A stretch of 64,000 nucleotides of DNA from Bilabrum cf. latius (taxonomy: Eukaryota): contig OZ237745.1 of the NCBI GenBank assembly GCA_965178125.1, forward strand, positions 62,001-126,000, in the 5' to 3' direction. Each line of letters begins with the position of its first letter. The stretch's first letter is position 1. Position numbers and translations under genes: made by a program. This document shows, one piece after another, positions 20,966 through 59,593 of the stretch. A model generated the notes under the pieces. That model had not been told where the DNA came from and ran no database searches. It saw only the letters and a list, made by a program, of their open reading frames with translations.

Positions 20966-23900
20966 GCCATGTTTGCAAGCTAGTCGACAGCATTGGGAGA
21001 GAATTCCAAGGGGCCCCTCGATTTGATCTTGGAGTCTCTCTATGGTTTTGCCTATGTTATGTCCAAAGAGATGACGGTGGAATAGAGAGCATACTTAGTG
21101 TTCATTACGATTGACGCGTTGCAGGTGAGAGAATCCCAGCGGGTGCCGCTCCTCGCACACGGAGGAAGCCGTTGATTCCTAATCGAACCAACGGTCAGAC
21201 CAAAACAAGCACAAGAAATACCGTTCATAACACTTCATCCTGCGCTACTATTTTGTTTTATCGTGCGCAGTTCTACAATTTCCCGGTGAATAGCTCGTTG
21301 TGGGAAGGCGGAGACTCGGCCGGTATTCCACCCCTCGCGACAGTTCTGGACGTCCTCAGCGGAGACTTTGTCGCAAGGTCCAGCTTGTTCACGCTTTATG
21401 TTGTCCTATTAGTAGCATCCACGCTTTGGACGTCCCTTTTCGTGGCCGCGAGCTGTTACGTTGGTGAGAATCCTCACGTTGTGTACTACGCCCATCATAT
21501 GCTCCTTGTTTGGCTGATACGGTGTTCGCAAGCTCCATGCAACCCATGATGCAAATAAGTTTGATTTTAGTCCAAATTCATTTTGGTTTGGAATCACTGC
21601 TCCACCGCTTTCCATCGATTGCAGCGTGGTGCTTCATCACGAAAGCGCCCCAATCTGGCATCGTGCTCAAGGGCCTCAGATCGGTGGCGACCTTGACGAC
21701 CACAACTCTATTCCTGCCGTTTACGACTGTGATGGCCAGGGCACTCGGGTGCCCGGGCGTGGAAGCCCCCGCCGAGTCTGGCTCGCTGGATGGCTTCTCG
21801 TGGATCGGCACGGGCTGGCAGTGCGATGCCGCCGGCCCGATCATCATCCGTATTTTCATCAGCGCCGTCCTGCTCGTGTTCGCGGTGCTCAGCGTGTTCA
21901 TTACGGCCGTGTTCATCGACCGGAACCCGGCCTCTGCGTCGTGGAGCGCCAAGAGCCACGGGCGGGTGGACGCTGTGGTGCTCGTGATCAAGGTAGTGCT
22001 GGTGCTCTGCTTCACCGTGTTCCGGGATGTGCTGCTCGACTCGTGGGTGCTCACCGCCATCCTCTACCTCTCGGGTCTCACGTGGGCCGTCCTCATGTTC
22101 AGGCAGATGCCGTACGTGCACGCGGGTGTCAACGGCATGCAGACCGGGTTTGCAGCCGTCTTCGTCTGGTCCACGGTGGCGCTGACTCTGCACAAGTATG
22201 CCAACTACGGAGACCTCAGCGTGCTCTTCTACATCGGTTGCGGGCTGTCCTACTGCCTTGGTTTCCTGGCCGTGTACGCCCGGGAGCACTATATCGCCAT
22301 GCTGCCGCTGGAGGAGTGCTCCAGGGTGGTGCACCTCGACGTGTGGGCCAGGCACCGCATGCAGGACTTCGCGCAGAGCAGGATGTAGTCGGGGGGTGCG
22401 GTGGCGGTGCTGAGCGACAGGGCATAGCGCAGGGGCAACAGGGGCAATGACGGTGGTGCAGGTGGCGGTGGGACGTTCCTCATGCAGCTGGGTGGTCAGC
22501 TAATGGGCCTGGCAGAGTCGTCCACCTCTGGGGGGTTGAACGGCTCCCACAAGCGTGCCGCTTCTGGTAGTGGAGGAGGCAGTCGTACGAAACACAAGGG
22601 AGCGGGCGCAAGGGACCGCTCCGGTGCTGGGCGTGGTGACGACACAGACGCCTCTCGGTCTGCAGGGGAGCAGGGCTTGCACGAGAGCTCTGATGATGAG
22701 GTGGAGGACGAGGACGAGCGGGCGGTGCTCCTGGCCCAGCGCAGGGCCGCAGCTTCGGCTGCTCCTCGTCTGGGTCTGGACACTGGTGCGGCGCTCATTG
22801 CCGGAGGAGAAGGGCTTGCTTCCTCTGCGGACCTCGGGGGGAACATCGATGCTGACACGCTCTACGGGCAGCGGCTGCTCCACAAGGCGTACTCCAACCC
22901 ACGGAGGAGGCTCGAAGAGCAGCGGCTGTACGCAGCCGAGCGAGCCTACCGCCACATGGTCATGCACCACGCGCAGAACCCCATGAGCCACGTGCTGGCA
23001 GCCGAGTTCTACCGCTCCTTCTACCCAGAGAACAACTTCGCCGAGGCACAGTGCCTATCTGCAGCCAGGCTGAGGCAGCCCGGGCTGGACGTGGCCTTCT
23101 TCATCTACCAGCGCACCAGGGCGCTGCGGGAGGGAGCTGACTCGAGCAAGCTGTCTGCGCTGGACCGCGTGATCTTCGAATCGCTGGCCAAGCAGGCGCA
23201 GGAGAGCAAGATCGCGGCACAGCGCAGCATCCTCAAGCTGTGGGAGCACCTGTCGCAGAGCCATCCGCGGGTGGGTGACCTTGTGGGAGTCAGCGTGGAG
23301 ATTGAGCAGTCTCTAGCTCGCACAGAGGGTCTGTACAAGACCATGATGCAGCTGAACTCGGGAGCGCTCGTGGCCCGCAACTACGCCGAGTTCCTTCTCG
23401 AGCTGAGGAACGACCCAATGCCCGCCATGGAGTGAGTCTGCTGCTCTGACCTAACCATGCAACCCTTTGCCATGCTACCTTTTCTTTTCGTACACTCAAC
23501 TGCCAGGGATCCTATAATGCTTCCTTCAGTCTCCTGTTTACACCCCCCCTCGCTCTATCCCGCAGGCTGTTCAACAAGGCCGACCGCATCGAGGAGAGGC
23601 ACACTCGGCAGCGGCAAAAGGCAGTCAAACACGTGGTGCTGGGCGCGCCTGCTCCTGATGTGGACCAGCTGGACGATTCTGCCGCCAGTCTCACCGTCAG
23701 CGCTTCGGACAGCAGCCTGGGTGAGATCCTGTCAGCCTCTCCAGCGGCCTGTCGACTCTTCGGGCACTCGAGCACGAGCTAGATCGTGGGACTGCCTGTG
23801 CTATCGCTGCTGCCGGAGCCTGTCCGCACCTTGTGGTAGAGGCGAGTGCACTCCATGGTGCGGCTGGGCTTCTCACCGAACCTAAATCGCACCGAAGTGA

Positions 23901-26900
23901 CCTTTGTGCAGCAGAGCAACGGAGCGGCCATCCCCGTGCTGCTCTCGCTCATGGAGAGCACGCCCGATGAGGTTACCTCCTCCCCGCGCCTGACCGTGAG
24001 CATGGACCGACTCAGGTGCGAGGAGAACGTGATCTTCTTCGCGGGCCCCCGCAGCGGACTCAGGGTGCTCTCTGCCAGCGCGTCCTCGCTGTCGCTCATG
24101 GGCGTGGATGCAGACTACCTGCAGCGGGAGTCGTACAGCATCAAGCACCTGCTGCCTAGCGCGGACCGCGGGAGCTTCGACGCGGAGGATTGGGCCCCGT
24201 GGGCGATGCTGGCTCTCCTGGAGAACTCCACTGGGGTGAGGAGGCACGGGAGGAGCGGCAGTCCAGGGCGCGCCTCTCGGTCCATGATCAGCATGCGGGG
24301 CAAGGGCGGCAAGAAGGCCAGGGCCCAGGAGCGGCGCATGAGGGAGCTAGACCGGAGACTAGCCGTTGAGCTGCGGGAGTACCTTGAGTCGGACGAGGCG
24401 CATGCCGGCGGTGACTCGCTTCTCATGATTGCGGGGGGAGACCAGAACGCAGCTGCTGCTATGGGCGGAGCCGGTGCTGCAGGAGGGGGCAAGGGCGGAC
24501 TGGTCTCTCTCGGGTCCTTTATCAAACAGGGCAGGCACGACCTATCAGGTGCCGGATCCAAGAAGAAGAGGAGCAAGGACGGCAAGGGCAACGCGAGGAG
24601 CGCGGCAGGATCGTTCAGGGCGCCGCATCCGCCGCCGGCCATGAGCTCCTCGAGCTCATTCTCTCGCAAGCGGTCTGCGGATGACATGCACCTGTCGGCT
24701 GTGCTCGAGGGAGACATGCGCACGATGCCGGTGTTCCCTGCTTCCATGCAGCTCAAGAGCCTCCTGCGACAGCGGGACACCGGCATGATACCTGTGGAGG
24801 GGGCTTCGGACGGGACGAGGCTTGTGTTCGGGTCCGTGCAGGACCTGACCCCGCTGTTCGGCGAGAGGCAGTTCATGCTGCGGTGGAGGCGGCCAGGGCA
24901 CGAAGAGTCACGGGCGCTCTTGACAGCGGTGCGACAGGCTTTGCTGGACGCGGGCTTCGGCAAGCGAGGCGGTGAAACACAGGAGGGTGGCTCTGGGGGC
25001 TCCCGTGAGAGATTGGGAGCGAAGGCTGCCGGCGATGTACCCACGCCGACTGTGAACGAGTCGAAGAAGAGCAATATTTTGCAGCTTGGATCTGGCGGAG
25101 ACAGCAGGAGCAAAGTATCCGTGTCCGTTGAGGTACCGCAGACGGTACAGCTCACCACCGCTGCGGATGACGATGGCAGCCGATCGATATCAGGCAGCTC
25201 TGCAGGTGGCACAGAGCAGGGGACGGTGGGCACCACCGGGGGCAAAGAGGCAGACTCGAGGGGCACTAGGCGTCGGTTCAGTCAACTGGGTGGGCGCATG
25301 GCCCAGGAGAGCCACTCCAGGCAGCCGTCCTCGAACGCGACTGGCTCAGTTGGGGGCATGTCCGTGAGCCAAGTCGATCCAAAGTTGGGCAGCCGAGAGG
25401 TGTCTAGCAGCTCATAGGCTTCCATGAACAGTCAGACACCCATGAACTCTGAGAAGGGACTGGCTAGCAAGTTCGCTGGGAGGTCTGCGTCACTCATGGT
25501 GGCAGGCAGCAGTACTGGATCTCAAAACAGTACGGCTGCCAACAGCCAGCAGGGCATGTCCTCGGCAAGGGGCATTGCTGCACCGGGCCCACTGATTGCG
25601 AAGGGCCGCCGTGGGTCATTCGCTAGGCATGGAAGTGCGATGAATTCCATGGGCAAGAGGCGAGGGTCGGCGATAAGCGATGGAGGGGCTGCTTTCCGTT
25701 AGAACGCCGAGGACCAGGGCAGCGTGGCATCATCGCAGAGCTGGATGGCGCAACAGCTCAGCAAGGTGGTGCAGACCAGGGCACAGGCAGCCAGCGAGGA
25801 GGTGTACGCGATGCAGGTGACCTTCTCGATACTTCTGGTCATCATCCTCATCCTCGGGGTAGTTGGTATCGTCACGCAGCGCGTCATCGGACAGGAGCTG
25901 CAGCGGGGCTCGCGGTACCTTTACATCACCAGCGAGACAGCCATGGAGTTTCAGGCCTTCTACAATGAGTATCGCTTCTTGGGGGCGCATAATTCAGCCA
26001 CATTCCCCCCGACGCTGCAGGACACCGAGCCCACCTTTCAGCGCATCAAGGCCCGGGCTCTCAGGCACTAGCAGCTGCACCTGGAGCTGACCAAAGCCAC
26101 CCCGGCCCTGGGGGCCCGCCGTGCCATCGACTTCGTGCAGGAGCCCATCTGGCCCTACTCGGACTCGGACCTTGCGGGATCAGCCATCGGCACCACCAAC
26201 GTGAGTGCCCTCAGGATTGGAGACGTGCTGACAGGCATCATGCTGACCATGGCAGGCGGCGAGGAGTCAACCTCGATAATCTTTGAGTCGGTGCCATACC
26301 GCACGCTGACAGTGAACGCAGACACGTACATCGAGGCCCTGAATGCCACTCTGTCCTAGCGACAGCTCGACGTGGTTGACTCTTTCGACACTGCCCGCTT
26401 GCTCATCGGGGGCATTGGCATTGGATGCTTCGTGGTGGCAATCACCGTGGGCTGCATCCTCTTCGTGCGGTCGCTCAGGGGACTCCGACAGCGGACCATT
26501 GCCGTGCTGGATCTGCTGGCCCACATGCCGCAGCGCATCGCCAAGAACCTCAAGAGCAGGGCCAGCGTGCGATTGACCAACACCGTGGCTAAGCTGGAGG
26601 GGCTGGAGGACGAGGACGAGGACAACCAGCGGGACATGGGCCTGGTGGACGAGATGGATGACAAAGAAATGGTCCGGGCTGCCATCGAAGCGGGAGCAGA
26701 ATCCAGTGATTCGGGCAGCTCGGGCGAGGAGGAAGGCGGCGAGGACATGCGCCGAGTGAGGCGTATGGCCTAGTTCCAGCGAGGCAACACCATGAAGCGA
26801 TTGCTGGGCGGGGCACCCAGGTCTGCTGCAGCGGCCACCAAGCTTCAGGACCAGGAGCAGGAGCGCTGGAAGGCACTGATTTCAGCTGAGAACCAGAGGG

Positions 26901-28486
26901 GTGGGGGTGGGCGGCTGATCAGCGGCAACAGCGTGAGTAAGGATACCATGAGTCTTGGCAAGGAAGCACTCAGCATGGGCAAGGAAGAGGCCATGAACAG
27001 CGCCAGGAGCTACGGGTCTGAGGATGAAGAAAGTAATGGAACCGCTGCCAGTGGCGGTGCTGCTCCCCGTCCGAGTGCATCGCAGCCACTAAGGGGCAGG
27101 CGGGGGTCTCGCGTGGTGCCAGCCACGGCAACTGCTGGAGGGGTGCGGGAGAGCTCGCAGGCCAGCCAGGGAACAGAGTCAAGCCAAGTCGACTATGAAG
27201 GATCTCTGGCTGGGTCTGATACTGGCGGTGGTGGCAACTCGAAGGCTGCAGACAAGGCACCGGGCCCGTTCAGTATCGGCGGCCCTGCGTTCAAGCAACC
27301 TGGCTCGCCAGCATCCACCCGCCCGCTGCAGATGGACGCGAAGGCGGACTTGGCCAGGCTTGAGCTGGCCCGGGGGCTCGGGCAGTCCGATGGCGATCTA
27401 CTAAAGACTGGTAGCGATGGCCGCGTGAAGCGGGCAGCAAGCAGCAACCGACGCAAAAAGAGGCGGCAGTCGATCGCAAGGGCGCTTCAGAAACGGGAGT
27501 TTAGAGACAACTGGACGTTCACGCTGCAGTCGACGATCCGTTTCACGGTGCCGCTGATGCTATTCTTCGGCTGGGTGCTGTACCTGGTGATCATGGTTAC
27601 CACGCTGCTCAACCAGGTGATGCGCTACAATGAGAGGATGGTCACGCTGCAGCGAATGGCCATCGACTCGGTTGACTACGTCAGGATTGCGCAGAACGTG
27701 GGCTTCCTTGCACCCACCAATGTGACTCGAGCCAGGGACCAGGCCATTGCGGAGGAGATCGAGGGCCGCATGCTGCAGACTCTGCAGAAAGTCACCATCG
27801 GGGGGGAGGTGGTCGATGAGGCGACTGGCTTGACCACGACCTTGGGCAGCTTGGAGCACGAGTACCCGAAGCGACTCCTGTTCGACGAGGCGTGCTTCGA
27901 GTCTCCTGACCTGGATGGCTGCCTCAGGGCGGGAGAAAGCACCCTCGAGCTGCAGGGCCTCGTGTTCGGGTTCGTGGACCCGAGGACACGCACGTTCACG
28001 CGCTCCATGCGGAACGGTGCCACCACGGCAATCTACTCTCTGGCTCAGGGTCTAAGGCAGTTCATAGGAGGCAGGCACCCAGACATATATCCTGGCGAAA
28101 GTCCTAACTTCAGCCCGTTCACGAACCCCATATACATCCAACTGCTCTTGCTGTGTACTGAGCTGGCCCAGCCGCACTTGCACGACTCGCTTCGGAGAGT
28201 GGCGGCCTTCTATGCTAACGAGGTTGAGGATCGCATTGACTAGTTCATGCAGATCAATGAGGCTGTGATTGGGAGCTACTTGGCAGTGGCCTTCATCGCC
28301 GTTGTGGTGCTCTACTGGAATGCGTTCCAGCACCTGTCGGCCCCGCTGTCTGCCTCGTGGCAGGCCCTCAGCGTGGTGCCACCGGGTGTGAGGGATTCGC
28401 TGCCGGGCATGCGCAAGGGAGTCAGGCAGCTGCTCACCGACGTGCAGGTGGGCAACCAGGCCAGAGGGGATGCGGGCGATGACTGA
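20966..28486. repeat. ~7.5 kb inverted duplication, arm 1 (partner ~52136-59596)
   Basis: Near-identical reverse-complement sequence and translations, for example ORFs 21510/59038, 22482/58066, 23846/56707, 26792/53827 and 28247/52375. Similarity ends just outside the ATG and TGA. Confidence 0.97.
20969..28486 (+). CDS. TmcB/TmcC-like multi-pass membrane protein with helical (TPR-like) region and PAS domain, copy 1
   Basis: Exons 20969-21124, 21271-21463, 21625-23431 and 23566-28486. N-terminal multi-TM block (LYGFAYVMSK...IDALQ, LFLPF, SHGRVD, MPYVH), NYAEFLLELRND, PAS-like GEILSASPAACRLFG...IVG...LLPEP, and later paired TM segments. 12 in-frame TAGs; terminal TGA. Confidence 0.8.
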
Positions 28487-28750
28487 TCCGTAAATGGTCG
28501 GAGGAACGGCTGCATGACCATCTGCTCCTCAAATCCTGAATGAATCCGGATATGTGGTTTGCTGGTGTGCCGATGCGCACAACATGGAGCAGTAGAGTCC
28601 TGGTATGTGTCTTGCTTATCTTACTCGTATTTTAAATCCAAATTCCAGATGTCCAGCAAGTTGTGCTCAACTGCCAGACTTTTCTGCATATAAGTATCCT
28701 TACGCGACTGAGAGACAGCGAATCCGCAGAGTCCCGATCCAGCTGTCGCG

Positions 28751-42382: not shown

Positions 42383-42553
42383 ACTGCTTAAGTTTCTATT
42401 GAATACTCTGAGACTGGATAACTATCTAGCTGTGCGGGCAACTCGGTGCATACACGAGTGACTGAACGTCGCGCTGTCGATGACGGGGCGCTCCGCAAAC
42501 CGGAAGTCGAGTCGAGCAAACGCAAACAGTGAGTGGCATCAATTTAGTGCAAC

Positions 42554-48500: not shown

Positions 48501-51373
48501 TTCTCACTGGTACCCGCATCTGGTGCTGCCTTGCTGTCTCTGCTCGTGCGACCCCTGCCCCTGCCCCTGCCCCTGCCTCCGCTTCCGCTTCCCGTGGAAG
48601 ACTGCGACAGGATACCAACAGCGGCCGCCTCCACGGCAGTGACGCCACCAACGGCGCACCCGGCCCTTTCCTTGTGGTTCTGCTTGCTGGCGTCATCGAC
48701 GTCACCAGGGGGCCCGCTCCTGGCATTCTCGCCGCCTTCTTCGTCTGCCCCATCTCCTCCGGCACCCACCCATCCAGCATCAGCTTTGCCCCCAGTCCCT
48801 TCCGCTGCGACATCGAAGAGCCCTTTGAGCGCCGTGGCCTTGCCCATCCCCAGAGCAGACGCCCCCCTACTGCCGCTCTCGCCCGCCGATACCCCGCTGC
48901 CACGAGACAGGGCAGATTCCCTCCCACCGCCGAAGAGGCCCCCACCCCTTGGGACCCCTCCAGTGCCGGCACTGTCCTCGGGGCCAAATGCCTGCAGCCT
49001 CGACCGACGCATCCCCACTCTGACCACCTCGGGGGCGTTGCCGGCATGGAGGGGGATTCCCGCGTCCACCTCCGCGGCTGCCGATCCAGCGCTGGCAGAC
49101 GAGTCCCGAGTGCATTCCCCTGCATCTGTATCGCCATGGCCCCACGAGGGCTGACGCATGCCCGGCCTGCCCATCGCTGCGGATCCTTCCCCTTCCCTTT
49201 CCCCACTGGCCAGTCGGATGGGAACTGGAAGCAACTCGCTGCCGGCTGCACCCCCAGCATCCCCACCTTCCGCTCCGAACAGACCTCGCTGCCCATCGCG
49301 GGGCGTCGCGCCACCCACCATCCCGTCTTCTCCTTCTCCTTCCCCATCGAATGGCATCGAGCTCGACCTTCCAAGCGTGTGAACGCCTCCGCCGGTCCCC
49401 GGCCCACCAATGCCCGCTCCCTGTCCCTGCCCTGCGCCGGCTCCCAGCCGCCCTCCCCGCCCGGCCTCCCCCTGCCTCTCCATGGCCTAGCTCTGCACCC
49501 TAGAGCTCATCTCCACTGCGTCCGTCAGCGAGCCCCAGGCCAGGTCCGTCTGGATGTACACGGTTGCATCCTCCCGCCATGCGCTGAAGTACTAAAGCAC
49601 GTGGCTGCATGAGGCTAGGGCGGCCATGGCCTGCGCCTCTCGAAGCATCGCCGATACGCTGCTGGCCAGGCCTCCCTGCCTGGGCCTCTTCACAGCGTAC
49701 GTCACCCCGTCCACGCGGCTCACGCACCGGAACACGTCCGCAAACTGCCCCGAGCCCACCTTGCTCACCTCCTGGAAGTTCCGCAGGTAGTGCGACACCG
49801 CGGCGCCGTTTCCAAGCCGCAGGGGAGCCCGCCGCCCCCTGCCCCGCCGACCGATGCCTCCCGCCTGCTTGGGGGCGAGAAACGGATTCACGTTCACCTG
49901 CGGGACGTGCTGCACGAACCGGCCCAGCCCGGCCTGTCGCGGCCCACCGGTGGTCAAAGCGGTACCGCCACTCGCCCCCCGCATCACAGTGCTGGGTGGG
50001 TGCACCCCCAAACCCCCAGTTAGCATGCCCCTGCGGAGGGGTGTGGGGGGCGGTCCCCTGCGGCCCCTCGCCCCGGGCCCGCGCTTGCGCACCACGCTAG
50101 GGGCCCGTCTGCCCAACGCGAAGCCGCCCGGCGAATCGGCTCCGGGTGCGTGCCCCCACCCGCCAGCTTCATCTTCGTCCTCATCCTCATCTCCGTTCTC
50201 GCCTGCAGAGCTTGCCGTCAATGAGGAGGAGGAGGACGAGGAGGACGCGAGAGCCATAGGAGGGCTGAACGACTGCCCGGGGCCAGCGCCGCGATCGCTG
50301 CCCAGATCGAAGCGCCCCCGCTGGCGGGACCTCGCATGGCGCAGCGACACGGCAAAGCCGGCCCCTGATTCTGCACCGATTCCAGTCTCGCCCACGGCAC
50401 TGGCGCTGGCCGGAGCACCTGTCGCTCCTGTCAGCGGCAGCTGCAGCCTGGTCCGCACATCACTTAGTGCCCCCGCCCCCGCCCCGCTCCCACGAACGAA
50501 CGCACTGCTCGACGCGCCCAAACGACTGCTCCCGCTAGAGGAACTGCCCCTGGGTGCTCCAGGGGTGCAGTCTACTGCCGTGCTAGTGCGCCCCGCCTCT
50601 CTCACAGCAGCATGCTAGTGCTGCTGCTGTTCCCGTCCGTTGTCGTTTGAATCACCGGGCGACGAAGGACGCAGTCGTTGGGCCCCTCTGTCCTGCGCAC
50701 CAGCACCTGCCCGCGGGGTGGCAGCCCCGCGGTCGGACTGGGGCGACCCCCATGCCTCGCGGGCTAGATCAGAGCAGCTCCTCCCACTCGGATGATGCCC
50801 CGCGTCCCTGACCCCGGCTCCGGCACTGACACCGTCCTCCATGGGAGCCGTGCCTGCGGTTTCCTGGGAGCAATTGCCCGCTGGTGGCAGGCGCGGTCCC
50901 CCCTCACTAGCGAGCAGCTGGCTGGGGTGCTAAGGAGCGGCCGGGAGTGTGGCGGGAGTGGCCGAGATGTCGATGGAGCGCGGCTGGGGCCGCAGGATCG
51001 GCTGGGATGGGGAGGATGAAGGCTATATTGCAGGACTGATGGGTGATTGATGTGGCTCGCGGGGGTCCCGCCTCCTCGGTGCCGCTCGGCTCTGTCTCGA
51101 CCTGGCCGAGTCGTTGGGCAGCTTCGGCAGAGCCCCAGGTGCGCGTGTCTGGGAGCCCAGGTCACCGGCTTCGGAGTCCAGGCTACCAGCAAGATGTGTA
51201 AAATCCTGCGAAGATGCCCCGACCGCGTCGTAGCCCCGATTCAATTCTGGATGAGCAAGACCTTCCGATCGTGCGACCGACGATGCAATCGCTGCATCAG
51301 CCGGCGATACTCGAGCTCGCTCCGACCCATTCTGGCATCCTATCTTTAGCTTTGACTGTCTCGCTTGCCCCAT
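42554..51373 (-). CDS. WEE1: Giant (~2900 aa) Wee1-like protein kinase with large low-complexity insertions
   Basis: N-lobe YLRNFQEVSKVGSGQFADVFRCVSRVDGVTYAVKR...LREAQAMAAL...VL[TAG]YFSAW...YIQTD..GSL; catalytic loop GLAAMHRRGVAHMDIKTSN; KLGDLG, DGDSRYMAPE and ADMYSLG. Ten ORF-track pieces share one frame, joined by ~16 TAGs. Ends TAA at 42554. Start uncertain and introns not excluded. Confidence 0.75.
46921..46988. repeat. Hexamer tandem repeat (CCCTGG/CCCTGA-TCCTGG) encoding QGQGQGQDQGQDQG in the Wee1-like gene
   Basis: About 11 visible 6-bp units. Confidence 0.85.
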
Positions 51374-52135
51374 GGGCTAGGAGAGCGGCTTTTGCGCATT
51401 GTTGATCACTCCTGTCGAGTTGCCGGTGGCGCCAGCAGCCTTCCGTGTCGACCGCGACGGCGCCGTGGTTCGTGACGGCTTTTCCCTGCGATGAACTAGG
51501 CAAGCGCATACACTATCAACTTCAATACAGCTAGCATACCACAGTTTTGGGATCGCGGACTGGATTGCGATTTCGACAGCATATGTCGTCACACAAAATT
51601 TGAACCAAAGTAGGCTGTGAGCGGACTAATCCTTGCTTACCGATGCGATTGCGCTTTGGATCCAAATAAACTGGATAAAGTCTACTGCTGGACAGCGTTG
51701 CTGCCCTTCGAAGACATGTGCTACGCGCGATACAGCTTGTTCCTGGAGCAAGCTGCCCACCTCCACTCCCCGGTTGCAACCACTTGCATCGTTGAACTTT
51801 CAAGAAGAAGATTAAAATTAATCCGATCGTGAAGAAGAAGATTATGATCCACGCAAAGTCGGCTTGAGCCGCCCAGTCATGGGATTGTAGCGGTGATATG
51901 CGGGCCACGCTATGTTTGGCACTTCGAGAGAGACGCTGTCGACGGGCACAAGGAGACGGAGTCGGGGGCAGACACCATTTCTTGATGCGTAAATCTATCG
52001 CCCCTCTGGACAGCCGCGATGCCGCACATGGTGGCTCCCATGGTGAGCAAAAGTGTAATAATGACCCGAAAACAAACAATTATGCCCGAAACCCCAAGAC
52101 AAGTTGCAACCCCCCGGGCCACTCTCGTCTCAGGG

Positions 52136-55100
52136 TCAGTCATCGCCCGCATCCCCCCTAGCCTGGTTGCCCACCTGCACGTCGGTGAGCAGCTGCCTGA
52201 CTCCCTTGCGCATGCCCGGCAGCGAATCCCTCACACCCGGTGGCACCACGCTGAGGGCCTGCCACGAGGCAGACAGCGGGGCCGACAGGTGCTGGAACGC
52301 ATTCCAGTACAGCACCACAACGGCGATGAAGGCCACTGCCAAGTAGCTCCCAATCACAGCCTCGTTGATCTGCATGAACTAGTCAATGCGATCCTCAACC
52401 TCGTTGGCATAGAAGGCCGCCACTCTCCGAAGCGAGTCGTGCAAGTGCGGCTGGGCCAGCTCAGTGCACAGCAATAGCAGCTGGATATACACGGGGTTTG
52501 TGAACGGGTTGAAGTTGGGGGTCTGGCCAGGATATATGTCTGGGTGCCTGCCTCCGATGAACTGCCTCAGACCCTGAGCCAGAGAGTAGATTGCCGTCTT
52601 TGCACCGTTCCGCATGGAGCGCGTGAACGTGCGTGTCCTCGGGTCCACGAACCCGAACACGAGGCCCTACAGCTCGAGGGTGCTTTCTCCCGCCCTGAGG
52701 CAGCCATCCAGATCTGGAGACTCGAAGCACGCCTCGTCGAACAGGAGTCGCTTCGGGTACTCGTGCTCCAAGCTGCCCAAGGTCGTGGTCAAGCCAGTCG
52801 CCTCATCGACCACCTCCCCCCCAATGGTGACTTTCTGCAGAGTCTGCAGCATGCGGCCCTCGATCTCCTCCGCAATGGCCTGGTCCCTGGCTCGAGTCAC
52901 ATTGGTGGGCGCAAGAAAGCCCACGTTCTGCGCAATCCTGACGTAGTCCACCGAGTCGATGGCCATTCGCTGCAGCGTGACCATCCTCTCATTGTAGCGC
53001 ATCACCTGGTTGAGCAGCGTGGTGACCATGATCACCAGGTACAGCACCCAGCCGAAGAATAGCATCAGCGGCACCGTGAAACGGATCGTCGACTGCAGCG
53101 TGAACGTCCAGTTGTCTCTAAACTCCCGTTTCTGCAGGACACGAGCCATCCTATGCCTCCTCTTCTTGCGTCGGCTACCGCTTTCGGTTCTTTTCGCTGG
53201 GCTGGAATTACCGGTATCTATGTTCGCATCGGACTGCCCGAGCCCCCGAGCCAGCTCAAGCCTGGCCAAGTCCGCCTTCGCGTCCATCTGCAGCGGGCGG
53301 GTGGATGCTGGCGAGCCAGGCTGCTTGAACGCACGATCGTCGATGCCCATCGGGCCCGGTACTTTGTCTGCAGCCTTCGGGTTGCCATCTTCACCTGCAT
53401 CAGACCCAGCCAGAGATCCTTCATAGTCGACTTGGCTCGACTCTGTTCCTTGACTAGCTTGCGAGCCCTCCTTCACACTTCCAGTAGTTGCCGCAGCTGG
53501 CACAACGCGAGACCCCCGCCTGCCCCTTAGTGGCTGCGATGCACTCGGGCGGGGAGCAGCACTGCCACTGGCAGCGGTTCCATTACTGTCTTCATCCTCA
53601 GACCCGTAGCTCCTGGCGCTGTTCATGGCCTCTTCTTTGCCCATGCTGAGTGCTTCCTTGCCAAGACTCATGGTATCCTTACTCACGCTGTTGCCGCTGA
53701 TCAGCCGACCACCCCCACCCCTCTGGTTCTCAGCCGAAATCAGTGCCTTCCAGCGCTCCTGCTCCTGGTCCTGAAGCTTGGTGGCCGCTGCAGCAGACCT
53801 GGGTGCCCCGCCCAGCAATCGCTTCATGGTGTTGCCTCGCTGGAACTAGGCCATACGCCTCACTCGGCGCATGTCCTCGCCGCCTTCCTCCTCGCCCGAG
53901 CTGCCCGAATCACTGGATTCTTCTCCCGCTTCGATGGCAGCCCGGACCATTTCTTTGTCATCCATCTCGTCCACCAGGCCCATGTCCCGCTGGTTGTCCT
54001 CGTCCTCGTCCTCCAGCCCCTCCAGCTTAGCCACGGTGTTGGTCAATCGCACGCTGGCCCTGCTCTTGAGGTTCTTGGCGATGCGCTGCGGCATGTGGGC
54101 CAGCAGATCCAGCACGGCAATGGTCCGCTGTCGGAGTCCCCTGAGTGACCGCACAAAGAGGATGCAGCCCACGGTGATTGCCACCACGAAGCATCCAATG
54201 CCAATGCCCCCGATGAGCAAGCGGGCAGTGTCGAAAGAGTCAACCACGTCGAGCTGTCGCTGGGACAGAGTGGCATTCAGGGCCTCGATGTACGTGTCTG
54301 CGTTCACTGTCAGGGTTTGACCTGGCACCCAGTCGAAGATCATTTCGGCTGGATCGTTTACCTTTGCCATGGTCAGCATGATGCCTGTCAGCACGTCTCC
54401 GATCCTGAGGGCGCTCACGTTGGTGGTGCCAATGGCTGATCCCGCAATGTCTGAGTCCGAGTAGGGCCAGATGGACTCTTGCACGAAGTCGATGGCACGG
54501 CGGGCCCCCAGGGCCGGGGTGGCTTTGGTCAGCTCCAGGTGCAGCTGCTAGTGCCTGAGAGCCCGGGCCTTGATGCGCTGAAAGGTGGGCTCGGTGTCCT
54601 GCAGCGTCGGGGGGAATGTGGCTGAATTATGTGCAGCAAGAAATCGATATTCATTGAAGAAGGCCTGAAACTCCATGGCTGTCTCGCTGGTGATGTACAG
54701 GTACCGCGAGCCCCGCTGCAGCTCCTGTCCGATGACGCGCTGCGTGACGATACCAACTACCCCGAGGATGAGGATGATGACCAAAAGTATCGAAAAGGTG
54801 ACCTGCATCGCGTACACCTCCTCGCTGGCTGCCTGTGCCCTGGTCTGCACCACCTTGCTGAGCTGCTGCGCCATCCAGCTCTGCGATGATGCCACGCTGC
54901 CCTGGTCCTCGGCGTTCTAACGGAAAGCAGCCCCTCCATCGCTTATCGCTGACCCGCGCCTCTTGCCTATGGAATTCATCGCACTTCCATGCTTGGCAGA
55001 TGACCCACGGCGGCCCTTCGCAATCAGTGGACCCGGTGCAGCAGTCCCCCTCGCCGAGGACATGCCTTGGCTATCCCGGCTGTCTCGACTGTTTGTGCTG

Positions 55101-58100
55101 CCCCCCGCGACCAATGACTCCGACCCCGCCGCTGAAGATTCTAAACTCTTAGATACCGACCTGCTTCCCATCTTGGGATTCACCTGGCTCATCGATCTGC
55201 CAAAGGAGCCAGTCGTGTTCGAGGAAACCTGCCGGGCCTGGTAGCTCTGGGCCATGCGCCCACCCGATTGACTGAACCGACGCCTAGTGCCCCTCGAGTC
55301 TGCCTGCTTCCCCCCAGTGGTGCCCACCGTCCCATGCTCTGTGCCACCTGCAGAGCTGCCTGATATCGATCGACCGCCATCATCATCAGAAGCGGTGGTG
55401 AGCTGTACCGTCTGCTGCACCTCAACAGACACAGATACCTTCCTGCTGCGGTCTCCGCCAGATCCAAGCTGCAAAACATCGCTCTTCTTCGACTCTTTCA
55501 CAGTCGGCGTGGGTACATCGCCGGCCGCCTTCGCTCCCAATCTCTCACGGGAGCCCCCAGAGCCACCCTCCTGTGTTTCACCGCCTCGCTTGCCGAAGCC
55601 CGCGTCCAGCAAAGCCTGTCTCACCGCTGTCAAGAGCGCCTGCGACTCTTCGTGCCCTGGCCGCCTCCACCGCAGCATGAACTGCCTCTCGCCGAACAGC
55701 GGGGTCAGGTCCTGCACGGACCCGAACACGAGCCTCGTCCCGTCCGAAGCCCCCTCCACAGGTATCATGCCGGTGTCCCGCTGTCGCAGGAGGCTCTTGA
55801 GCTGCATGGAAGCAGGGAACACCGGCATCGTGCGTGTGTCTCCCTCAAGTACAGCTGACAGGTGCATGCCATCAGCAGACCGCTTGCGAGAGAATGAGCT
55901 CGAGGAGCTCATGGCTGGCGGCGGATGCGGCGCCCTGAACGATCCTGCCGCGCTCCTCGCGTTGCCCTTGCCGTCCTTGCTCCTCTTCTTCTTGGACCCG
56001 GCACCTGATAGGTCGTGCCTGCCCTGTTTGATAAAGGACCCGAGAGAGACCAGCCCACCCTTGCCCCCTCCAGCAGCACCGGCTCCACCCATAGCAGCAG
56101 CTGCGTTCTGGTCTCCCCCCGCAATCATGAGAAGCGAGTCACCGCCGGCATGCGCCTCGTCCGACTCAAGGTACTCCCGCAGCTCAACGGCTAGTCTCCG
56201 GTCTAGCTCCCTCATGCGCCACTCCTGGGCTCTGGCCTTCTTGCCGCCCTTGCCCCGCATGCTGATCATGGACCGAGAGGCACGCCCTGGACTGCCGCTC
56301 CTCCTGTGCCTCCTCACCCCAGTGGAGTTCTCCAGGAGAGCCAGCATCGCCCACGGGGCCCAATCCTCCGCGTCGAAGCTCCCACGGTCCGCGCTAGGCA
56401 GCAGGTGCTTGATGCTGTACGACTCCCGCTGCAGGTAGTCTGCATCCACGCCCATGAGTGACAGCGAGGACGCGCTGGCAGAGAGCACCCTGAGTCCGCT
56501 GCGGGGGCCCGCGAAGAAGATCACGTTCTCCTCGCACCTGAGTCGGTCCATGCTCACAGTCAGGCGCGGGGAGGAGGTGACCTCATCGGGCGTGCTCTCC
56601 ATGAGCGAGAGCAGCACGGGGATGGCCGCTCCGTTGCTCTGCTGCACAAAGGTCACCTCGGTGCGATTCAGGTTCGGTGAGAAGCCCAGCCGCACCATGG
56701 AGTGCACTCGCCTCTACCACAAGGTGCGGACGGGCTCCGGCAGCAGCGATAGCACAGGCAGTCCCACGATCTAGCTCGTGCTCGAGTGCCCGAAGAGTCG
56801 ACAGGCCGCGGGAGAGGCTGACAGGATCTCACCCAGGCTGCTGTCCGAAGCGCTGACGGTGAGACTGGCGGCAGAATCGTCCAGCTGGTCCACATCAGGA
56901 GCAGGCGCGCCCAGCACCACGTGTTTGACTGCCTTTTGCCGCTGCCGAGTGTGCCTCTCCTCGATGCGGTCGGCCTTGTTGAACAGCCTGCGGGATAGAG
57001 GGGGGGAAATACAGGAGACTGCAGGAAGCATTATAGGATCGCTAGCAGTTGAGTGTACGAAAAGAAAAGGTGGCATGGCAGAGGGTTGCATGGTTAGGTC
57101 AGAGCAGCAGACTCACTCCATGGCGGGCATTGGGTCGTTCCTCAGCTCGAGAAGGAACTCGGCGTAGCTGCGGGCCACAAGCGCTCCCGAGTTCAGCTGC
57201 ATCATGGTCTTGTAAAGGCCCTCTGTGCGAGCTAAGGACTGCTCAATCTCCACGCTGACTCCCACAAGGTCACCCACCCGCGGATGGCTCTGCGACAGGT
57301 GCTCCCACAGCTTGAGGATGCTGCGCTGTGCCGCGATCTTGCTCTCCTGCGCCTACTTGGCCAGCGACTCGAAGATCACACGGTCCAGCGCAGACAGCTT
57401 GCTCGAGTCAGCCCCCTCCCGCAGCGCCCTGGTGCGCTGGTAGATGAAGAAGGCCACGTCCAGCCCGGGCTGCCTCAGCCTGGCTGCAGATAGGCACTGT
57501 GCCTCGGCGAAGTTGTTCTCTGGGTAGAAGGAGCGGTAGAACTCGGCTGCCAGCACGTGGCTCATGGGGTTCTGCGCGTGGTGCATGACCATGTGGCGGT
57601 AGGCTCGCTCGGCTGCGTACAGCCGCTGCTCTTCGAGCCTCCTCCGTGGGTTGGAGTACGCCTTGTGGAGCAGCCGCTGCCCGTAGAGCGTGTCAGCATC
57701 GATGTCACCCCCGAGGTCCGCAGAGGACGCTAGCCCTTCTCCTCCGGCAATGAGCGCCGCGCCAGTGTCCAGGCCCAGACGAGGAGCAGCCGAAGCTGCT
57801 GCCCTGCGCTGGGCCAGGAGCACCGCCCGCTCGTCCTCGTCCTCCACCTCATCATCAGAGCTCTCGTGCAAGCCCTGCTCCCCTGCAGACCGAGAGGCGT
57901 CTGTGTCGTCACCACGCCCAGCACCGGAGCGGTCCCTTGCGCCCGCTCCCTTGTGTTTCGTACGACTGCCTCCTCCACTGCCAGAAGCGGCACGCTTGTG
58001 GGAGCCGTTCAACCCCCCAGAGGTGGACGACTCTGCCAGGCCCATTAGCTGACCGCCCAGCTGCATGAGGAACGTCCCACCGCCACCTGCACCACCGTCA

Positions 58101-59593
58101 TTGCCCCTGTTGCACCCGCGCTATGCCCTGTCACTCAGCACCGCCACCGCACCCCCCGACTACATCATGCTCTGCGCGAAGTCCTGCATGCGGTGCCTGG
58201 CCCACACGTCGAGGTGCACCACCCTGGAGCACTCCTCCAGCGGCAGCATGGCGATGTAGTGCTCCCGGGTGTATACGGCCAGGAAACCAAGGCAGTAGGA
58301 CAGCCCGCAACCGATGTAGAAGAGCACGCTGAGGTCTCCGTAGTTGGCATACTTGTGCAGAGTCAGCGCCACCGTGGACCAGACGAAGACGGCTGCAAAC
58401 CCGGTCTGCATGCCGTTGACACCTGCGTGCACGTACGGCATCTGCCTGAACATGAGGACGGCCCACGTGAGCCCCGAGAGGTAGAGGATGGCGGTAAGCA
58501 CCCACGAGTCGAGCAGCATGTCCCGGAACACGGTGAAGCAGAGCACCAGCACTACCTTGATCACGAGCACCACAGCGTCCACCCGCCCGTGGCTCTTGGC
58601 GCTCCACGACGCAGAGGCCGGGTTCCGGTCGATGAACACGGCTGTAATGAACACGCTGAGCACCGCGAACACGAGCAGGACGGCGCTGATGAATACACGG
58701 ATGATGATCGGGCCGGCGGCATCGCACTGCCAGCCCGTGCCGATCCACGAGAAGCCATCCAGCGAGCCAGACTCGGCGGGGGCTTCCACGCCCGGGCACC
58801 CGAGCGCCCTGGCCATCACAGTCGTAAACGGCAGGAATAGAGTAGTGGTCGTCAAGGTCGCCACCGATCTGAGGCCCTTGAGCACGATGCCAGATTGGGG
58901 CGCTTTCGTGATGAAGCACCACGCTGCAATCGATGGAAAGCGGTGGAGCAGTGATTCCAAACCAAAATGAATCTGGACCAAAATCAGACTTATTTGCATC
59001 ATGGTTTGCATGGAGCTTGCGAACACCGTATCAGCCAAACAAGGAGCATCTGATGGGCGTAGTACACAACGTGAGGATTCTCACCAACGTAACAGCTCGC
59101 GGCCACGAAAAGGGACGTCCAAAGCGTGGATGCTACTAATAGGACAACATAAAGCGTGAACAGGCTGGACCTTGCGACAAAGTCTCCGCTGAGGACATCC
59201 AGGACTGTTGCGAGGTGCGGAATGCCTGACGAATCTCCACCCTCCCACAACGAGCCATTCACCGGGAAATTGTAAAACTGCACGTACCATGGTCGCAAGA
59301 AGTAAAATTTTGACTATACTTGGTACGAGCAACGCAGAAACTCGACGACTAGGATGACAAGCCTGCCATAATTCTCAATCATTGATCTGCGGCGATACGA
59401 TTGGGTTGCTCTGAGGTACTGAAACAATCTATCTCACTTGCAAAGCATCGATAGTGATTAATACCAAGTATGCCCTCTGTTCTACGGTCATCTCCTTGGA
59501 CATCACATAGGCAAAACCGTAGAGGGACTCCAAGACTAAATCCAGGGGCCCCTTGGAATTCTCTCCCAATGCTGTCGACTAGCTTGAGATCAT
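52136..59593 (-). CDS. TmcB/TmcC-like multi-pass membrane PAS protein, copy 2
   Basis: Same exon structure as copy 1: exons 59593-59438, 59277-59085, 58923-57117 and 56987-52136. About 12 in-frame TAGs; terminal TGA. Confidence 0.8.

What the first reader, a model, noticed from the sequence alone, without database searches (positions are those of the whole stretch)
21083..59479. TAG/CAG swaps in both directions between the inverted paralogs
Four aligned codons differ as TAG versus CAG. Copy 1 TAG 21083 matches copy 2 CAG 59479-59477 (VE.RAY). Copy 1 CAG 23193 matches copy 2 TAG 57355-57353 (LAK.AQE). Copy 1 TAG 26357 matches copy 2 CAG 54262-54260 (TLS.RQL). Copy 1 CAG 27953 matches copy 2 TAG 52669-52667 (LEL.GL). 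About ten other TAGs are shared by both copies. TAG behaves as a synonymous Gln codon, and this test needs no external database.
Basis: seen in the sequence. Interest (0 to 1): 0.88.

Follow-up and report, generated by a model that had tools for sequence, protein, structure and literature searches.

The report
Nuclear TAG read as glutamine
This GC-rich protist genome uses TAG, normally a stop signal, as an ordinary codon that most likely means glutamine, a rare change of the nuclear genetic code that breaks standard gene prediction for the organism.

Summary
The window is eukaryotic nuclear DNA (63% GC, GT-AG introns). Two inverted paralogs (20969-28486 + and 52136-59593 -) encode a 2358/2335-codon TmcB-like membrane protein. 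They carry 12 and 11 in-frame TAGs, no in-frame TAA or TGA, and a terminal TGA. Nine TAGs are shared, four are TAG/CAG swaps (two each way), and one lies in unalignable low complexity. Both copies are under purifying selection (dN/dS 0.23; differences by codon position 83/58/220; exon indels all multiples of 3). Contigs of two runs splice out the three predicted introns and keep every TAG, so RNA editing is not the explanation. Across the window, 24 TAGs have coding sequence on both sides, against 0 of 1574 TGA and 0 of 323 TAA. Glutamine is the best reading. All four swaps are with CAG, TAGs sit inside polyQ runs, and closer homologs carry Q at 3 of 5 TAG sites. TAA seems to remain a stop. 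A metagenomic relative shows the same TAG-only pattern (24 TAG, expected 16 TAA, one seen). A single-gene tree places the organism near stramenopiles. tRNA-Gln(CUA) and eRF1 could not be examined. This is a new lineage carrying a known, rare code variant.

The parts
20969..28486 (+). Copy a of the TmcB-like gene: ATG at 20969, TGA at 28484-28486, 2358 codons, 12 in-frame TAG. Exons are 20969-21124, 21271-21463, 21625-23431 and 23566-28486.
   Evidence: Gene model and stop census. Pfam TPR_TmcB, E 4.7e-11, 43.1 bits against a cut-off of 27. All exon junctions are seen as GT..AG joints in contigs of X2 (three) and X4 (two).
21125..21270 (+). Intron 1 of copy a (146 nt, GT..AG). It cannot be aligned with intron 1 of copy b.
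   Evidence: Joint 21120/21267 'skips 146, GT..AG (cut +4)' in X2 and X4. Alignment.
21464..21624 (+). Intron 2 of copy a (161 nt, GT..AG, phase 1).
   Evidence: Joint 21462/21624 'skips 161, GT..AG (cut +1)' in X2 and X4. It is one of the candidate introns enumerated.
23432..23565 (+). Intron 3 of copy a (134 nt, GT..AG, phase 2). It holds the only 5-base indel between the two copies.
   Evidence: Joint 23431/23566 'skips 134, GT..AG' in X2..
52136..59593 (-). Copy b, the inverted paralog: ATG at 59593-59591, TGA at 52138-52136, 2335 codons, 11 in-frame TAG. Introns are 59278-59437, 58924-59084 and 56988-57116, all GT..AG.
   Evidence: X8 contig letters equal copy b at 38 of 40 listed differences. 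Library protein P0121 (237 aa, 100% identical) ends exactly before the copy-b TAG at 57355.
21083..21085 (+). Swap 1: TAG in copy a (codon 39) against CAG at 59479-59477 in copy b.
   Evidence: The T is present in the unspliced X1 contig 20989-21381 and in the spliced X2 contig, each with 0 other letters.
23193..23195 (+). Swap 2: CAG in copy a (codon 640) against TAG at 57355-57353 in copy b. The site lies inside the TPR_TmcB domain.
   Evidence: X8 reads T here. The closer homologs P0126 and P0221 have Q.
26357..26359 (+). Swap 3: TAG in copy a (codon 1650) against CAG at 54262-54260 in copy b.
   Evidence: X1 contig 26306-27114 and X2 record 12 each show 0 other letters.
27953..27955 (+). 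Swap 4: CAG in copy a (codon 2182) against TAG at 52669-52667 in copy b.
   Evidence: X2 record 13 and X4 record 19 cover the a-side with 0 other letters.
20981..28243 (+). Nine TAGs shared by both copies (a/b first bases): 20981/59581, 22386/58162, 22425/58123, 23780/56773, 23837/56716, 25700/54919, 26069/54550, 26771/53848 and 28241/52381. There is also an a-only TAG at 25415 in low complexity.
   Evidence: Homologs at 44-61% identity have Q at 22386 (two homologs) and at 23780, D/E at 22425, and R at 23837.
10192..10194 (-). In-frame TAG in the PP2A scaffold subunit A gene (ORF 9190-10986, codon 265), between HEAT repeats that are conserved on both sides.
   Evidence: The homolog column is K x6, Q x3, R, N, A. 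The coding score of both flanks is high.
49592..49594 (-). In-frame TAG in the N-lobe of a Wee1-like kinase (ORF 42554-51766, codon 725). The catalytic C-lobe lies about 1300 codons downstream.
   Evidence: Pkinase, 1.6e-29. SHVLqYFSAWRED aligns to human Wee1 SHVVRYFSAWAED.
59972..59974 (-). In-frame TAG 23 codons before the TGA of CFAP58 (ORF 59903-62671, codon 900). A second TAG sits at 62540-62542 (codon 44).
   Evidence: The tail after this TAG carries QRFAGGGF, which resembles the PRF-TGGGF C-terminal motif printed for the Chlamydomonas and mammalian chains. This was read by eye and was not aligned by HMMER.
42554..42556 (-). TAA that ends the Wee1-like kinase ORF. An AT-richer spacer of about 180 bases follows, then the start of a GST gene (41497-42339 plus a short first exon).
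   Evidence: It is taken as a probable genuine TAA stop. This is an inference, since no transcript end was seen.

Best explanation
The organism reads UAG as a sense codon in its nuclear genes, most probably glutamine. UGA, and apparently UAA, still terminate translation. This is the pattern of NCBI table 15, the type described for Iotanema. TAG codons arise from CAG by C>T transitions and revert the same way. Under this code those changes are silent, so two paralogs under purifying selection can differ TAG/CAG in both directions. What is shown: TAG is in frame in expressed, spliced, selectively constrained genes, while TGA and TAA are not. What is shown less strongly: the residue is Gln. What is inferred from known UAG=Gln systems and not tested here: decoding by a cognate tRNA-Gln with anticodon CUA, which pairs with UAG but not UAA, together with an eRF1 that has lost or weakened UAG recognition.
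For: (1) Paralogs. There are 12 and 11 in-frame TAGs, 0 in-frame TGA or TAA, and a terminal TGA where paralog similarity stops. dN/dS is 0.226 overall and 0.085 in the last 258 codons. Differences by codon position are 83/58/220. Exon indels are 3, 51, 12 and 3 bases, and intron indels are 11, 15, 10 and 5. (2) Expression. Contigs of X2 and X4, from two studies, join the exons at GT..AG exactly as predicted. X2 records 9, 12 and 13 cover 20900-28600 with 0 other letters, so all 12 TAGs persist in the spliced form. (3) Window-wide control. Stop triplets whose 40-codon flanks both score as coding, with no TGA or TAA in those flanks, number 24 of 715 for TAG, 0 of 1574 for TGA and 0 of 323 for TAA. 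Coding ORFs hold 52 TAG, 519 CAG and 76 CAA in 13421 codons. TAGs interrupt the PP2A-A HEAT repeats, the Wee1 N-lobe and CFAP58. (4) Identity as Gln. Of the TAG-bearing sites that differ between the paralogs, 4 of 4 are CAG. TAG/CAG differs at 4 of 13 sites against 2 of 222 for ordinary E<->Q replacements (Fisher 8e-5). TAGs lie in polyQ runs (QQQqqQ, RqHEqQQE, RqQQSqT). Residues next to TAG are Q in 22 of 208 cases, against Q's own 212 of 2380 and the next best, M, at 61 of 1097. Homologs at 44-61% identity show Q,Q at site 371, Q,Q at site 640 and Q at site 791. In these pairs P(Q|Q) is 26 of 59 and P(Q|E) is 4 of 62, and Q is best by 7.0 ln units. In the alignment, Q is best by 8.4 ln units for the shared TAG columns. 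(5) TAA is not sense. No TAA has coding flanks, against 3.5 expected from the CAA:CAG ratio (P 0.03), or 7.6 expected for all 52 TAGs (P 5e-4). Two ORFs end in TAA. (6) A relative shares the pattern. Metagenome locus L002 (55% GC) has 9 TAG in 955 codons of the orthologous gene and 15 TAG in a neighbouring kinase gene. With CAG 58 and CAA 39, about 16 TAA would be expected, and none was counted in these two stretches.
Against: Distant family members (25-35% identity, 9 TAG columns, 21 sequences) rank D and E above Q by 13.3 ln units. Two of the five sites with closer homologs are not Q: D/E at site 384, which is in low complexity, and R at site 810. The PP2A-A column is K x6 against Q x3, and the Wee1 column is R in human. 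In the relative L002 one TAG faces a column that is E in 10 of 10 other sequences, and E and Q tie there (E 0, Q -1.3 ln). L002 and L001 also carry one in-frame TAA, 15 codons after a conserved intron acceptor. No tRNA gene lies in the window or the loci, no genome is held for the window, and no peptide data were available. The library kind of X2 and X4 is not on record, and the tool guesses 'RNA?' and, for X2, 'probably DNA'. The gene ends, and therefore stop-codon usage, are inferred from ORF ends and not from transcript ends.
Confidence: 0.82

Rival explanations
1. UAG is a sense codon but stands for another residue, with glutamate the most serious candidate, then arginine or lysine.
For: The distant-family column test ranks D and E first. 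One TAG of the relative L002 faces a column that is E in 10 of 10 sequences, and E and Q tie for that relative. The PP2A-A column is mostly K. The Wee1 column is R.
Against: No TAG/GAG, TAG/AAG or other swap was seen between the paralogs; the four reliably aligned differing sites are all CAG. TAG/CAG turnover is 4 of 13 against ordinary E<->Q at 2 of 222. Closer homologs give Q at 3 of 5 sites, with Q ahead of E by 7.0 ln units. TAG shares the Q-rich neighbourhood of CAG, 10.6% against 5.1% for E.
Confidence: 0.06
2. Both UAG and UAA are glutamine codons (the UAR=Gln code of table 6, as in ulvophytes, hexamitids and Amoeboaphelidium), and TAA is absent only because the genome is GC-rich.
For: GC3 is 82%, so few TAA are expected: about 1.2 in one paralog and 3.5-7.6 in the window. 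One in-frame TAA appears in the relative's ortholog, in both L001 and L002.
Against: 0 of 323 TAA in the window have coding flanks. Two ORFs end in TAA. In the 55% GC relative, 24 TAG stand against about 16 expected TAA (P of at most one TAA = 1.7e-6). The single TAA there is followed at once by ATG.
Confidence: 0.07
3. UAG has a dual, context-dependent meaning. It is sense inside genes and also terminates at some gene ends, as reported for Condylostoma and karyorelict ciliates, or it is read by inefficient readthrough.
For: True gene ends were not mapped, so a share of genes ending in TAG cannot be excluded. TAG is rarer in the most codon-biased genes: MCM6, the Pyr_redox gene, GST and the RRM gene have 0.
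Against: Twelve UAGs in one 2358-codon mRNA under purifying selection right up to its TGA are not compatible with low-efficiency readthrough. The last TAG of CFAP58 is followed by a conserved-looking C-terminal motif (read by eye).
Confidence: 0.1
4. The TAGs are not translated. The two copies would be decaying pseudogenes, or the TAGs would be assembly errors, or they would be corrected in the RNA (U-to-C editing).
For: Under the standard code both copies are broken 11-12 times. Public ORF catalogues hold only fragments, such as P0121 (237 aa) and P0165 (54 aa).
Against: dN/dS is 0.23, there is a strong third-position excess, and exon indels are all in frame. Only TAG is in frame, never TGA or TAA. 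The same bases occur in runs of four studies. Spliced contigs keep T at all 12 sites. TAGs also occur inside essential conserved genes.
Confidence: 0.01

Closest known systems
UAG=Gln with UAA and UGA kept as stops: Iotanema spirale (Fornicata), Protocruzia tuzeti and two phyllopharyngean ciliate lineages (NCBI table 15 pattern)
   Same: Only UAG is reassigned, the residue is glutamine, and UAA is retained as a stop. Sources are passages of PMC5304391 and PMC11687900. The window shows the same pattern.
   Different: Those organisms are a metamonad and ciliates. Iotanema uses mainly UAA as its terminator. This genome is 63% GC, has 130-160 nt GT-AG introns, ends most ORFs in TGA, and groups near stramenopiles in a quick single-gene MCM6 tree. 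Whether the tRNA and eRF1 basis is the same was not tested.
UAR=Gln codes (table 6): ulvophycean green algae, hexamitid diplomonads, oxymonads, many ciliates, and the aphelid Amoeboaphelidium protococcarum
   Same: A stop codon is reassigned to glutamine, TAG and CAG are interchangeable, and UGA is the terminator (passages).
   Different: In those codes UAA is reassigned as well. Here no in-frame TAA was found in the window, and at most one against about 16 expected in the relative.
UAG reassigned to other residues with UAA kept as a stop: rhizarian exLh (Leu), Scotinosphaera (Ser), phyllopharyngean ciliates (Leu)
   Same: UAG is uncoupled from UAA (passages).
   Different: The residue differs. 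No TAG/TTG or TAG/TCG swap was seen, and L and S rank 19-26 ln units below Q.
TmcB/TmcC-type proteins (Pfam TPR_TmcB), for example Cafeteria 'TmcB/TmcC TPR repeats domain-containing protein'
   Same: The paralog protein matches TPR_TmcB above the Pfam cut-off. It aligns over its N-terminal membrane region and the TPR part with 1800-2650-aa proteins. The nearest named ones are from Cafeteria at 30-33% identity.
   Different: The function of this family was not examined here. The window protein carries long low-complexity inserts, and its C-terminal 1639 residues found no word-based homolog.

Membership tests
Nuclear code with UAG=Gln only (table 15 pattern) | In-frame UAG inside conserved, expressed protein-coding genes | tested here: met
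   There are 12 and 11 TAGs in the paralogs. TAGs also lie in PP2A-A, Wee1 and CFAP58. 24 TAGs have coding flanks on both sides. Spliced contigs keep them.
Nuclear code with UAG=Gln only (table 15 pattern) | UAG positions correspond to glutamine in homologs | tested here: met
   4 of 4 paralog swaps are with CAG. Q is found at 3 of 5 sites in homologs of 44-61% identity, and Q is best by 4.0-7.0 ln units. Distant homologs do not support this and rank D and E first.
Nuclear code with UAG=Gln only (table 15 pattern) | UAA retained as a terminator and not used as a sense codon | tested here: met
   0 of 323 TAA have coding flanks, against 3.5-7.6 expected. Two ORFs end in TAA. The relative has 24 TAG against about 16 expected TAA and one seen. 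Power within the window alone is modest (P 0.03).
Nuclear code with UAG=Gln only (table 15 pattern) | UGA retained as a terminator | tested here: met
   0 of 1574 TGA have coding flanks. Both paralogs, PP2A-A, MCM6 and CFAP58 end in TGA.
Nuclear code with UAG=Gln only (table 15 pattern) | Cognate tRNA-Gln with anticodon CUA | not testable with these tools
   No tRNA gene lies in the window or in L001-L003. No genome is held for the window.
Nuclear code with UAG=Gln only (table 15 pattern) | eRF1 altered so that UAG is no longer recognised | not testable with these tools
   eRF1 is not in the window, and no genome is held.
UAR=Gln code (table 6) | UAA used as a glutamine codon alongside UAG | tested here: not met
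   See the TAA rows above. The single in-frame TAA in L001 and L002 remains unexplained.
Context-dependent stop/sense codes | The same codon also terminates genes at their 3' ends | tested here: inconclusive
   ORF ends are 13 TGA and 2 TAA, but TAG was treated as sense in that census and no transcript 3' ends were mapped.
TmcB/TmcC-like proteins | TPR_TmcB domain above the Pfam gathering score | tested here: met
   The window protein scores 43.1 bits against a cut-off of 27, E 4.7e-11. The relative L002 scores 53.6 bits.

The most novel reading that the evidence does not exclude
The window organism and at least one uncultured relative (L001-L003) form a so far unnamed, stramenopile-affiliated clade of GC-rich flagellates. 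In this clade nuclear UAG has been captured as a glutamine codon, while UAA and UGA still terminate. It would be the first nuclear code change in stramenopiles and one of very few cases in any eukaryote where UAG and UAA are uncoupled. The relative's amino-acid meaning is still open (Gln or Glu), so the clade might even hold two different UAG meanings.
Probability: 0.4. Interest if true: 0.8.

Novelty: new member of a known kind. Interest (0 to 1): 0.72.

Why it matters
Nuclear code changes are rare, and changes that separate UAG from UAA are rarer still. The passages read name Iotanema, Protocruzia, some phyllopharyngean ciliates, a rhizarian and Scotinosphaera. A further independent case would add a data point on how UAG is captured, and it comes from a GC-rich, intron-bearing and apparently culturable or at least repeatedly sequenced protist. 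High GC and rare UAG stops fit a codon-capture route. There is also a practical consequence. Standard-code gene calling shatters this organism's proteins. The public protein libraries hold only fragments of the paralog, such as P0121, which ends exactly at a TAG. Any annotation, orthology or phylogenomic use of this genome and its metagenomic relatives therefore needs table 15. The paralog comparison is a database-free test that can be reused on other genomes.

Tried and rejected
- The word-based homolog search with exon 4 (1639 aa) found nothing at E<=1e-3. The first metagenome scan with the same query found no relative.
- The protein-atlas look-up of MCM6 gave only generic MCM clusters and no taxonomic help.
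- PP2A-A homologs are all 42-54% identical and come from mixed supergroups, so they give no placement.
- The distant-family column test was uninformative on Q and ranked D and E first.
- There are no tRNA genes in the window or the loci and no Rfam family in the window.
- The chlorophyte-type TGTAA poly(A) signal was looked for near 3' ends and not found there: 23 copies on both strands, none placed after the stops inspected.
- No RNA holder is listed among the sequencing runs.
- Some parts of the stretch have no listed cover in single runs.
- Six literature searches found no paper describing a UAG=Gln nuclear code in a stramenopile or in any GC-rich non-ciliate other than those cited. Subscription journals and supplementary files were not searchable, so this does not prove that it is unpublished.
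- An aphelid origin was considered because Amoeboaphelidium has a Gln code and lives in algal cultures. It was not supported: that code is described as UAR=Gln, and MCM6 groups with stramenopiles, not fungi.
- A green-algal origin was considered from the PDB best hits (Chlamydomonas CFAP58 and plant PP2A-A). It was not supported.


Full report
**What the window is.** The 64-kb window is 55-70% GC, mean about 63%. Under the standard code its long reading frames are broken. When TAG alone is read through, frames of 1504, 1617, 1651 and 3070 codons appear. Pfam shows eukaryotic nuclear genes: PP2A scaffold subunit A, CFAP58, a Wee1-like kinase, MCM6, an LRR/EF-hand protein, an exostosin, TraB, a pyridine-nucleotide disulphide oxidoreductase, GST, an RRM protein and a WW/p25-alpha protein. 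No tRNA gene and no Rfam family lie in the window.

**The observation.** blastn of the window on itself gives one inverted repeat, 20965-28489 against 59597-52133, at 94-97% identity, plus an 86% block at the 5' end. Similarity stops within a few bases of the TGA at 28484-28486 / 52138-52136.

Substitutions between the copies fall on the third position of the frames that carry the TAGs. The frame changes at three places where both copies have GTGAG...CAG boundaries. This gives four exons:
- Copy a: 20969-21124, 21271-21463, 21625-23431 and 23566-28486.
- Copy b: the same structure, with introns 59278-59437, 58924-59084 and 56988-57116.

With this model copy a has 2358 codons, 12 in-frame TAG, no in-frame TAA or TGA, and a terminal TGA. 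Copy b has 2335 codons, 11 TAG and a terminal TGA.

- 21083 TAG / 59479 CAG
- 23193 CAG / 57355 TAG
- 26357 TAG / 54262 CAG
- 27953 CAG / 52669 TAG

It also shows nine shared TAGs, and one TAG (25415) in a low-complexity stretch that cannot be aligned reliably.

**The copies are functional genes.**
- Nei-Gojobori dN/dS with TAG=Q is 0.226 (dS 0.129, dN 0.029). It is 0.124 in the first 1300 codons and 0.085 in the last 258, which lie downstream of nearly all TAGs.
- Differences by codon position are 83/58/220.
- Indels inside exons are 3, 51, 12 and 3 bases. Indels in introns are 11, 15, 10 and 5 bases.
- In exon 1 the copies differ at 23 of 156 positions, 18 of them third positions. Even so, the TAG at codon 5 is kept in both copies.

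Identity along the gene is mosaic, with 100-column bins ranging from 100% down to 66%. Intron 1 and the flanks cannot be aligned, whereas introns 2 and 3 are 92-97% identical. I read this as an old duplication partly homogenised by gene conversion. That is an inference, and it means dS underestimates the age of the duplication.

**Reads.** Eighteen runs from 12 studies hold the stretch or part of it. All ids are coded, and all data are kept as Logan contigs. I laid four runs on 20900-28600.
- X1 contigs are unspliced and match copy a with 0 other letters.
- X2 and X4 contigs join 21120/21267 (skipping 146) and 21462/21624 (skipping 161). X2 also joins 23431/23566 (skipping 134). All joints are GT..AG, exactly the three predicted introns.
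- X2 records 9, 12 and 13 together cover 20900-28600 with 0 other letters. The spliced form therefore keeps T at all 12 TAGs, which argues against U-to-C editing.
- The library kind of X2 and X4 is not on record. The tool guesses 'RNA?' and, for X2, 'probably DNA'. The spliced contigs are my reason for treating them as transcript-derived.
- X8 carries a diverged version. At 38 of the 40 listed differences it equals copy b, including 23193 C>T and the intron-3 deletion.
- 170 further difference rows were not shown. The b-side letters of the other three swaps were therefore not seen in reads.

**TAG is sense throughout the window.** I trained a codon-usage log-odds score on confirmed coding sequence, with stop triplets scored as zero. 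Then, for every stop triplet in all six frames, I asked whether both 40-codon flanks score as coding (>6) with no TGA or TAA in them. The result is 24 of 715 for TAG, 0 of 1574 for TGA and 0 of 323 for TAA.

Coding ORFs, with copy b left out, hold 52 TAG, 519 CAG and 76 CAA in 13421 codons. This set includes some weakly scoring ORF parts (exostosin, the kinase N-terminus). The 24 sites are therefore the conservative figure.

TAG sits between conserved HEAT repeats of PP2A-A. It also sits in the beta-strand SHVLqYFSAW of the Wee1 N-lobe, far upstream of the catalytic lobe. A third example lies 23 codons before the CFAP58 stop, ahead of a QRFAGGGF tail that resembles the PRF-TGGGF C-terminus of the Chlamydomonas and mammalian chains (read by eye). 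The most codon-biased genes (MCM6, the oxidoreductase, GST, RRM) have no TAG.

**Which amino acid.**

Internal evidence:
- The four reliably aligned differing TAG sites are all TAG/CAG, and none is TAG/GAG, AAG, TCG, TTG, TGG or TAY.
- 4 of 13 TAG-bearing sites differ, against a first-position difference rate of 57 of 2245 (P 2.5e-4) and ordinary E<->Q replacements of 2 of 222 (Fisher 8e-5).
- The rare synonymous codon CAA turns over in the same way, with 7 CAA/CAG against 4 CAA/CAA sites.
- TAGs lie in glutamine runs (QQQqqQ, RqHEqQQE, RqQQSqT). Residues at +-1 and +-2 of TAG are Q in 22 of 208 cases (10.6%). Q's own figure is 8.9%, and the next residue type is M at 5.6%.

External evidence:
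- A full HMMER search with exon 3 found 442 proteins at E<=1e-3.
- Fragments at 44-61% identity give Q,Q at site 371 (QDFAQSRMqSGGA against QDYAQSRLQSGGA), Q,Q at site 640 and Q at site 791 (GHSSTSqIVGLP against GHANTSQLVGSP). They give D/E at site 384, which is in low complexity, and R at site 810.
- Conditional frequencies came from the same 2162 aligned pairs. On these, Q is best by 7.0 ln units over E with all 8 observations, and by 4.0 over R and 5.6 over E with one observation per site.

Results against Q, or neutral:
- 21 distant family members (25-35% identity) over 9 TAG columns rank D, then E (-3.7), then Q (-13.3).
- The PP2A-A column is K x6, Q x3, R, N, A.
- The Wee1 column is R in human.

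I weight the closer homologs and the paralog swaps more heavily, because TAG sites are mostly variable positions at which distant sequences say little.

**TAA and TGA.** No in-frame TAA was found. From the CAA:CAG ratio, 3.5 TAA would be expected among the 24 conservative sites (P 0.03) and 7.6 among all 52 (P 5e-4). The kinase ORF and an LRR-like ORF end in TAA. The kinase TAA is followed by an AT-richer spacer and then the GST gene. Thirteen other ORF ends are TGA.

**A relative with the same habit.** The closer fragments are unnamed metagenome proteins. Searching JGI metagenome contigs with one of them (P0267) returned three loci, L001-L003, at 55-58% GC.

In L002 the orthologous gene shares the position of intron 2 and the GTTG|GTGAGA donor sequence. 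It reads through 9 TAGs in 955 codons with no TGA. A neighbouring kinase gene on the other strand has 15 TAGs. These two genes hold 58 CAG and 39 CAA, so about 16 TAA would be expected if TAA shared the meaning. None was counted in these two stretches (P 1e-7).

One in-frame TAA does occur just upstream, 15 codons after the intron acceptor, in both L001 and L002. It is directly followed by ATG and aligns to a K/R column. I cannot explain it.

At the window's TAG sites 371 and 791 the relative has CAG. The relative's own TAGs fall on three informative columns:
- one conserved Q column (both window copies and 5 of 6 closer homologs);
- one column that is E in 10 of 10 other sequences;
- one S/Q column.

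E and Q tie there. The meaning in the relative is therefore open, while in the same alignment Q leads by 8.4 ln units for the window's shared TAG columns.

**Who it is.** PP2A-A has no homolog above 54% identity among 5.8 billion proteins, and the best hits are of mixed supergroups. The nearest named full-length homologs of the paralog protein are 'TmcB/TmcC TPR repeats domain-containing' proteins of the bicosoecid Cafeteria, at 30-33% identity.

For MCM6 the best hits are unnamed metagenome proteins and a record labelled Symbiodinium sp. KB8 (68-69% identity), followed by ochrophyte stramenopiles. I built a quick IQ-TREE tree of 34 rows that I picked out of the 120 listed, choosing the named rows and the best unnamed ones. 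The careful search did not finish. In the quick tree the window sits in a 7-row clade of unnamed rows plus that record (SH-aLRT 99). This clade lies inside an 18-row clade (99) that also holds Pinguiococcus, Tribonema, Phaeothamnion, Ascophyllum and Ectocarpus.

This is one gene with limited sampling. I take it as a tentative stramenopile affinity with no named close relative.

**Comparison with what is known.**
- From passages of PMC5304391: UAG and UAA were thought always to change together, until UAG=Leu was found in a rhizarian and UAG=Gln (with UAA the main stop) in Iotanema spirale. A CUA-anticodon tRNA can read UAG without reading UAA.
- From passages of PMC11687900: UAG-only Gln is also reported in Protocruzia tuzeti and two phyllopharyngean ciliate lineages, and UAG=Ser in Scotinosphaera.
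- From passages of PMC6299283: Amoeboaphelidium reads both TAG and TAA as Gln, and Paraphelidium uses the standard code.

Six full-text searches found no report of such a code in a stramenopile or another GC-rich non-ciliate. Subscription journals and supplements were not covered.

The pattern here meets the testable defining features of the UAG=Gln-only code. The tRNA and eRF1 features could not be tested.

**Verdict.** The mechanism I commit to is a genuine reassignment of UAG to glutamine, read by a cognate tRNA-Gln(CUA), with UGA (and UAA) as terminators. I give it about 0.8 confidence. The sense status of TAG is close to certain. The Gln identity is well but not decisively supported. The machinery is inferred. 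It is a new lineage carrying a known, rare code variant.

Noticed in passing
window 20965-28489 and 52133-59597: Identity between the inverted paralogs is mosaic: 100-column bins range from 100% down to 66%. Intron 1 and both flanks cannot be aligned, while introns 2 and 3 are 92-97% identical. This looks like an old duplication kept similar by patchy gene conversion across 23.6 kb of unrelated genes.
   Followed up: partly
L002 5398-5403 (also L001 428): A single in-frame TAA in the relative's TmcB-like gene lies 15 codons after a conserved intron acceptor. It is immediately followed by ATG and aligns to a K/R column. It could be a stop-restart, a rare sense TAA or a split gene.
   Followed up: partly
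L002 6532 (alignment column 711): One TAG of the relative faces a column that is glutamate in all 10 other family members (FAEAQCLSAARLR). Q and E tie as the meaning of TAG in that relative.
   Followed up: partly
window 57353-58066 (protein P0121) and 57117-57275 region (P0165): Public protein libraries contain standard-code ORF fragments of this gene that end or start at TAGs (P0121: 237 aa, 100% identical; P0165: 54 aa, 96% identical). The organism's proteins are therefore fragmented in those catalogues.
   Followed up: yes
window 23192-23252: In run X2 two very short contigs (66 and 31 letters, depth about 500 against about 40-55 elsewhere) lie on this stretch with a 1-base shift. The stretch is next to the 23193 swap site. 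The cause is unknown; it may be a repeat or an assembly bubble between the copies.
   Followed up: no
window 42340-42560: Only about 180 bases separate the TAA of the 3070-codon Wee1-like ORF from the ATG of the next gene (GST, whose short first exon ends in GTGAGT). Gene spacing is very tight.
   Followed up: no
proteins P0281 and P0278: Two records labelled Symbiodinium sp. KB8 are among the closest relatives of window genes: MCM6 at 68-69% identity, and a member of a TmcB-like cluster. In the MCM6 tree the record groups with unnamed metagenome rows near stramenopiles, which suggests that the assembly holds sequence from a relative of this organism.
   Followed up: partly
window 9190-10986: The PP2A-A ORF lacks the first HEAT repeat that all homologs have, about 55 residues before the DDDDD motif. 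At least one upstream exon is therefore missing from this ORF.
   Followed up: no
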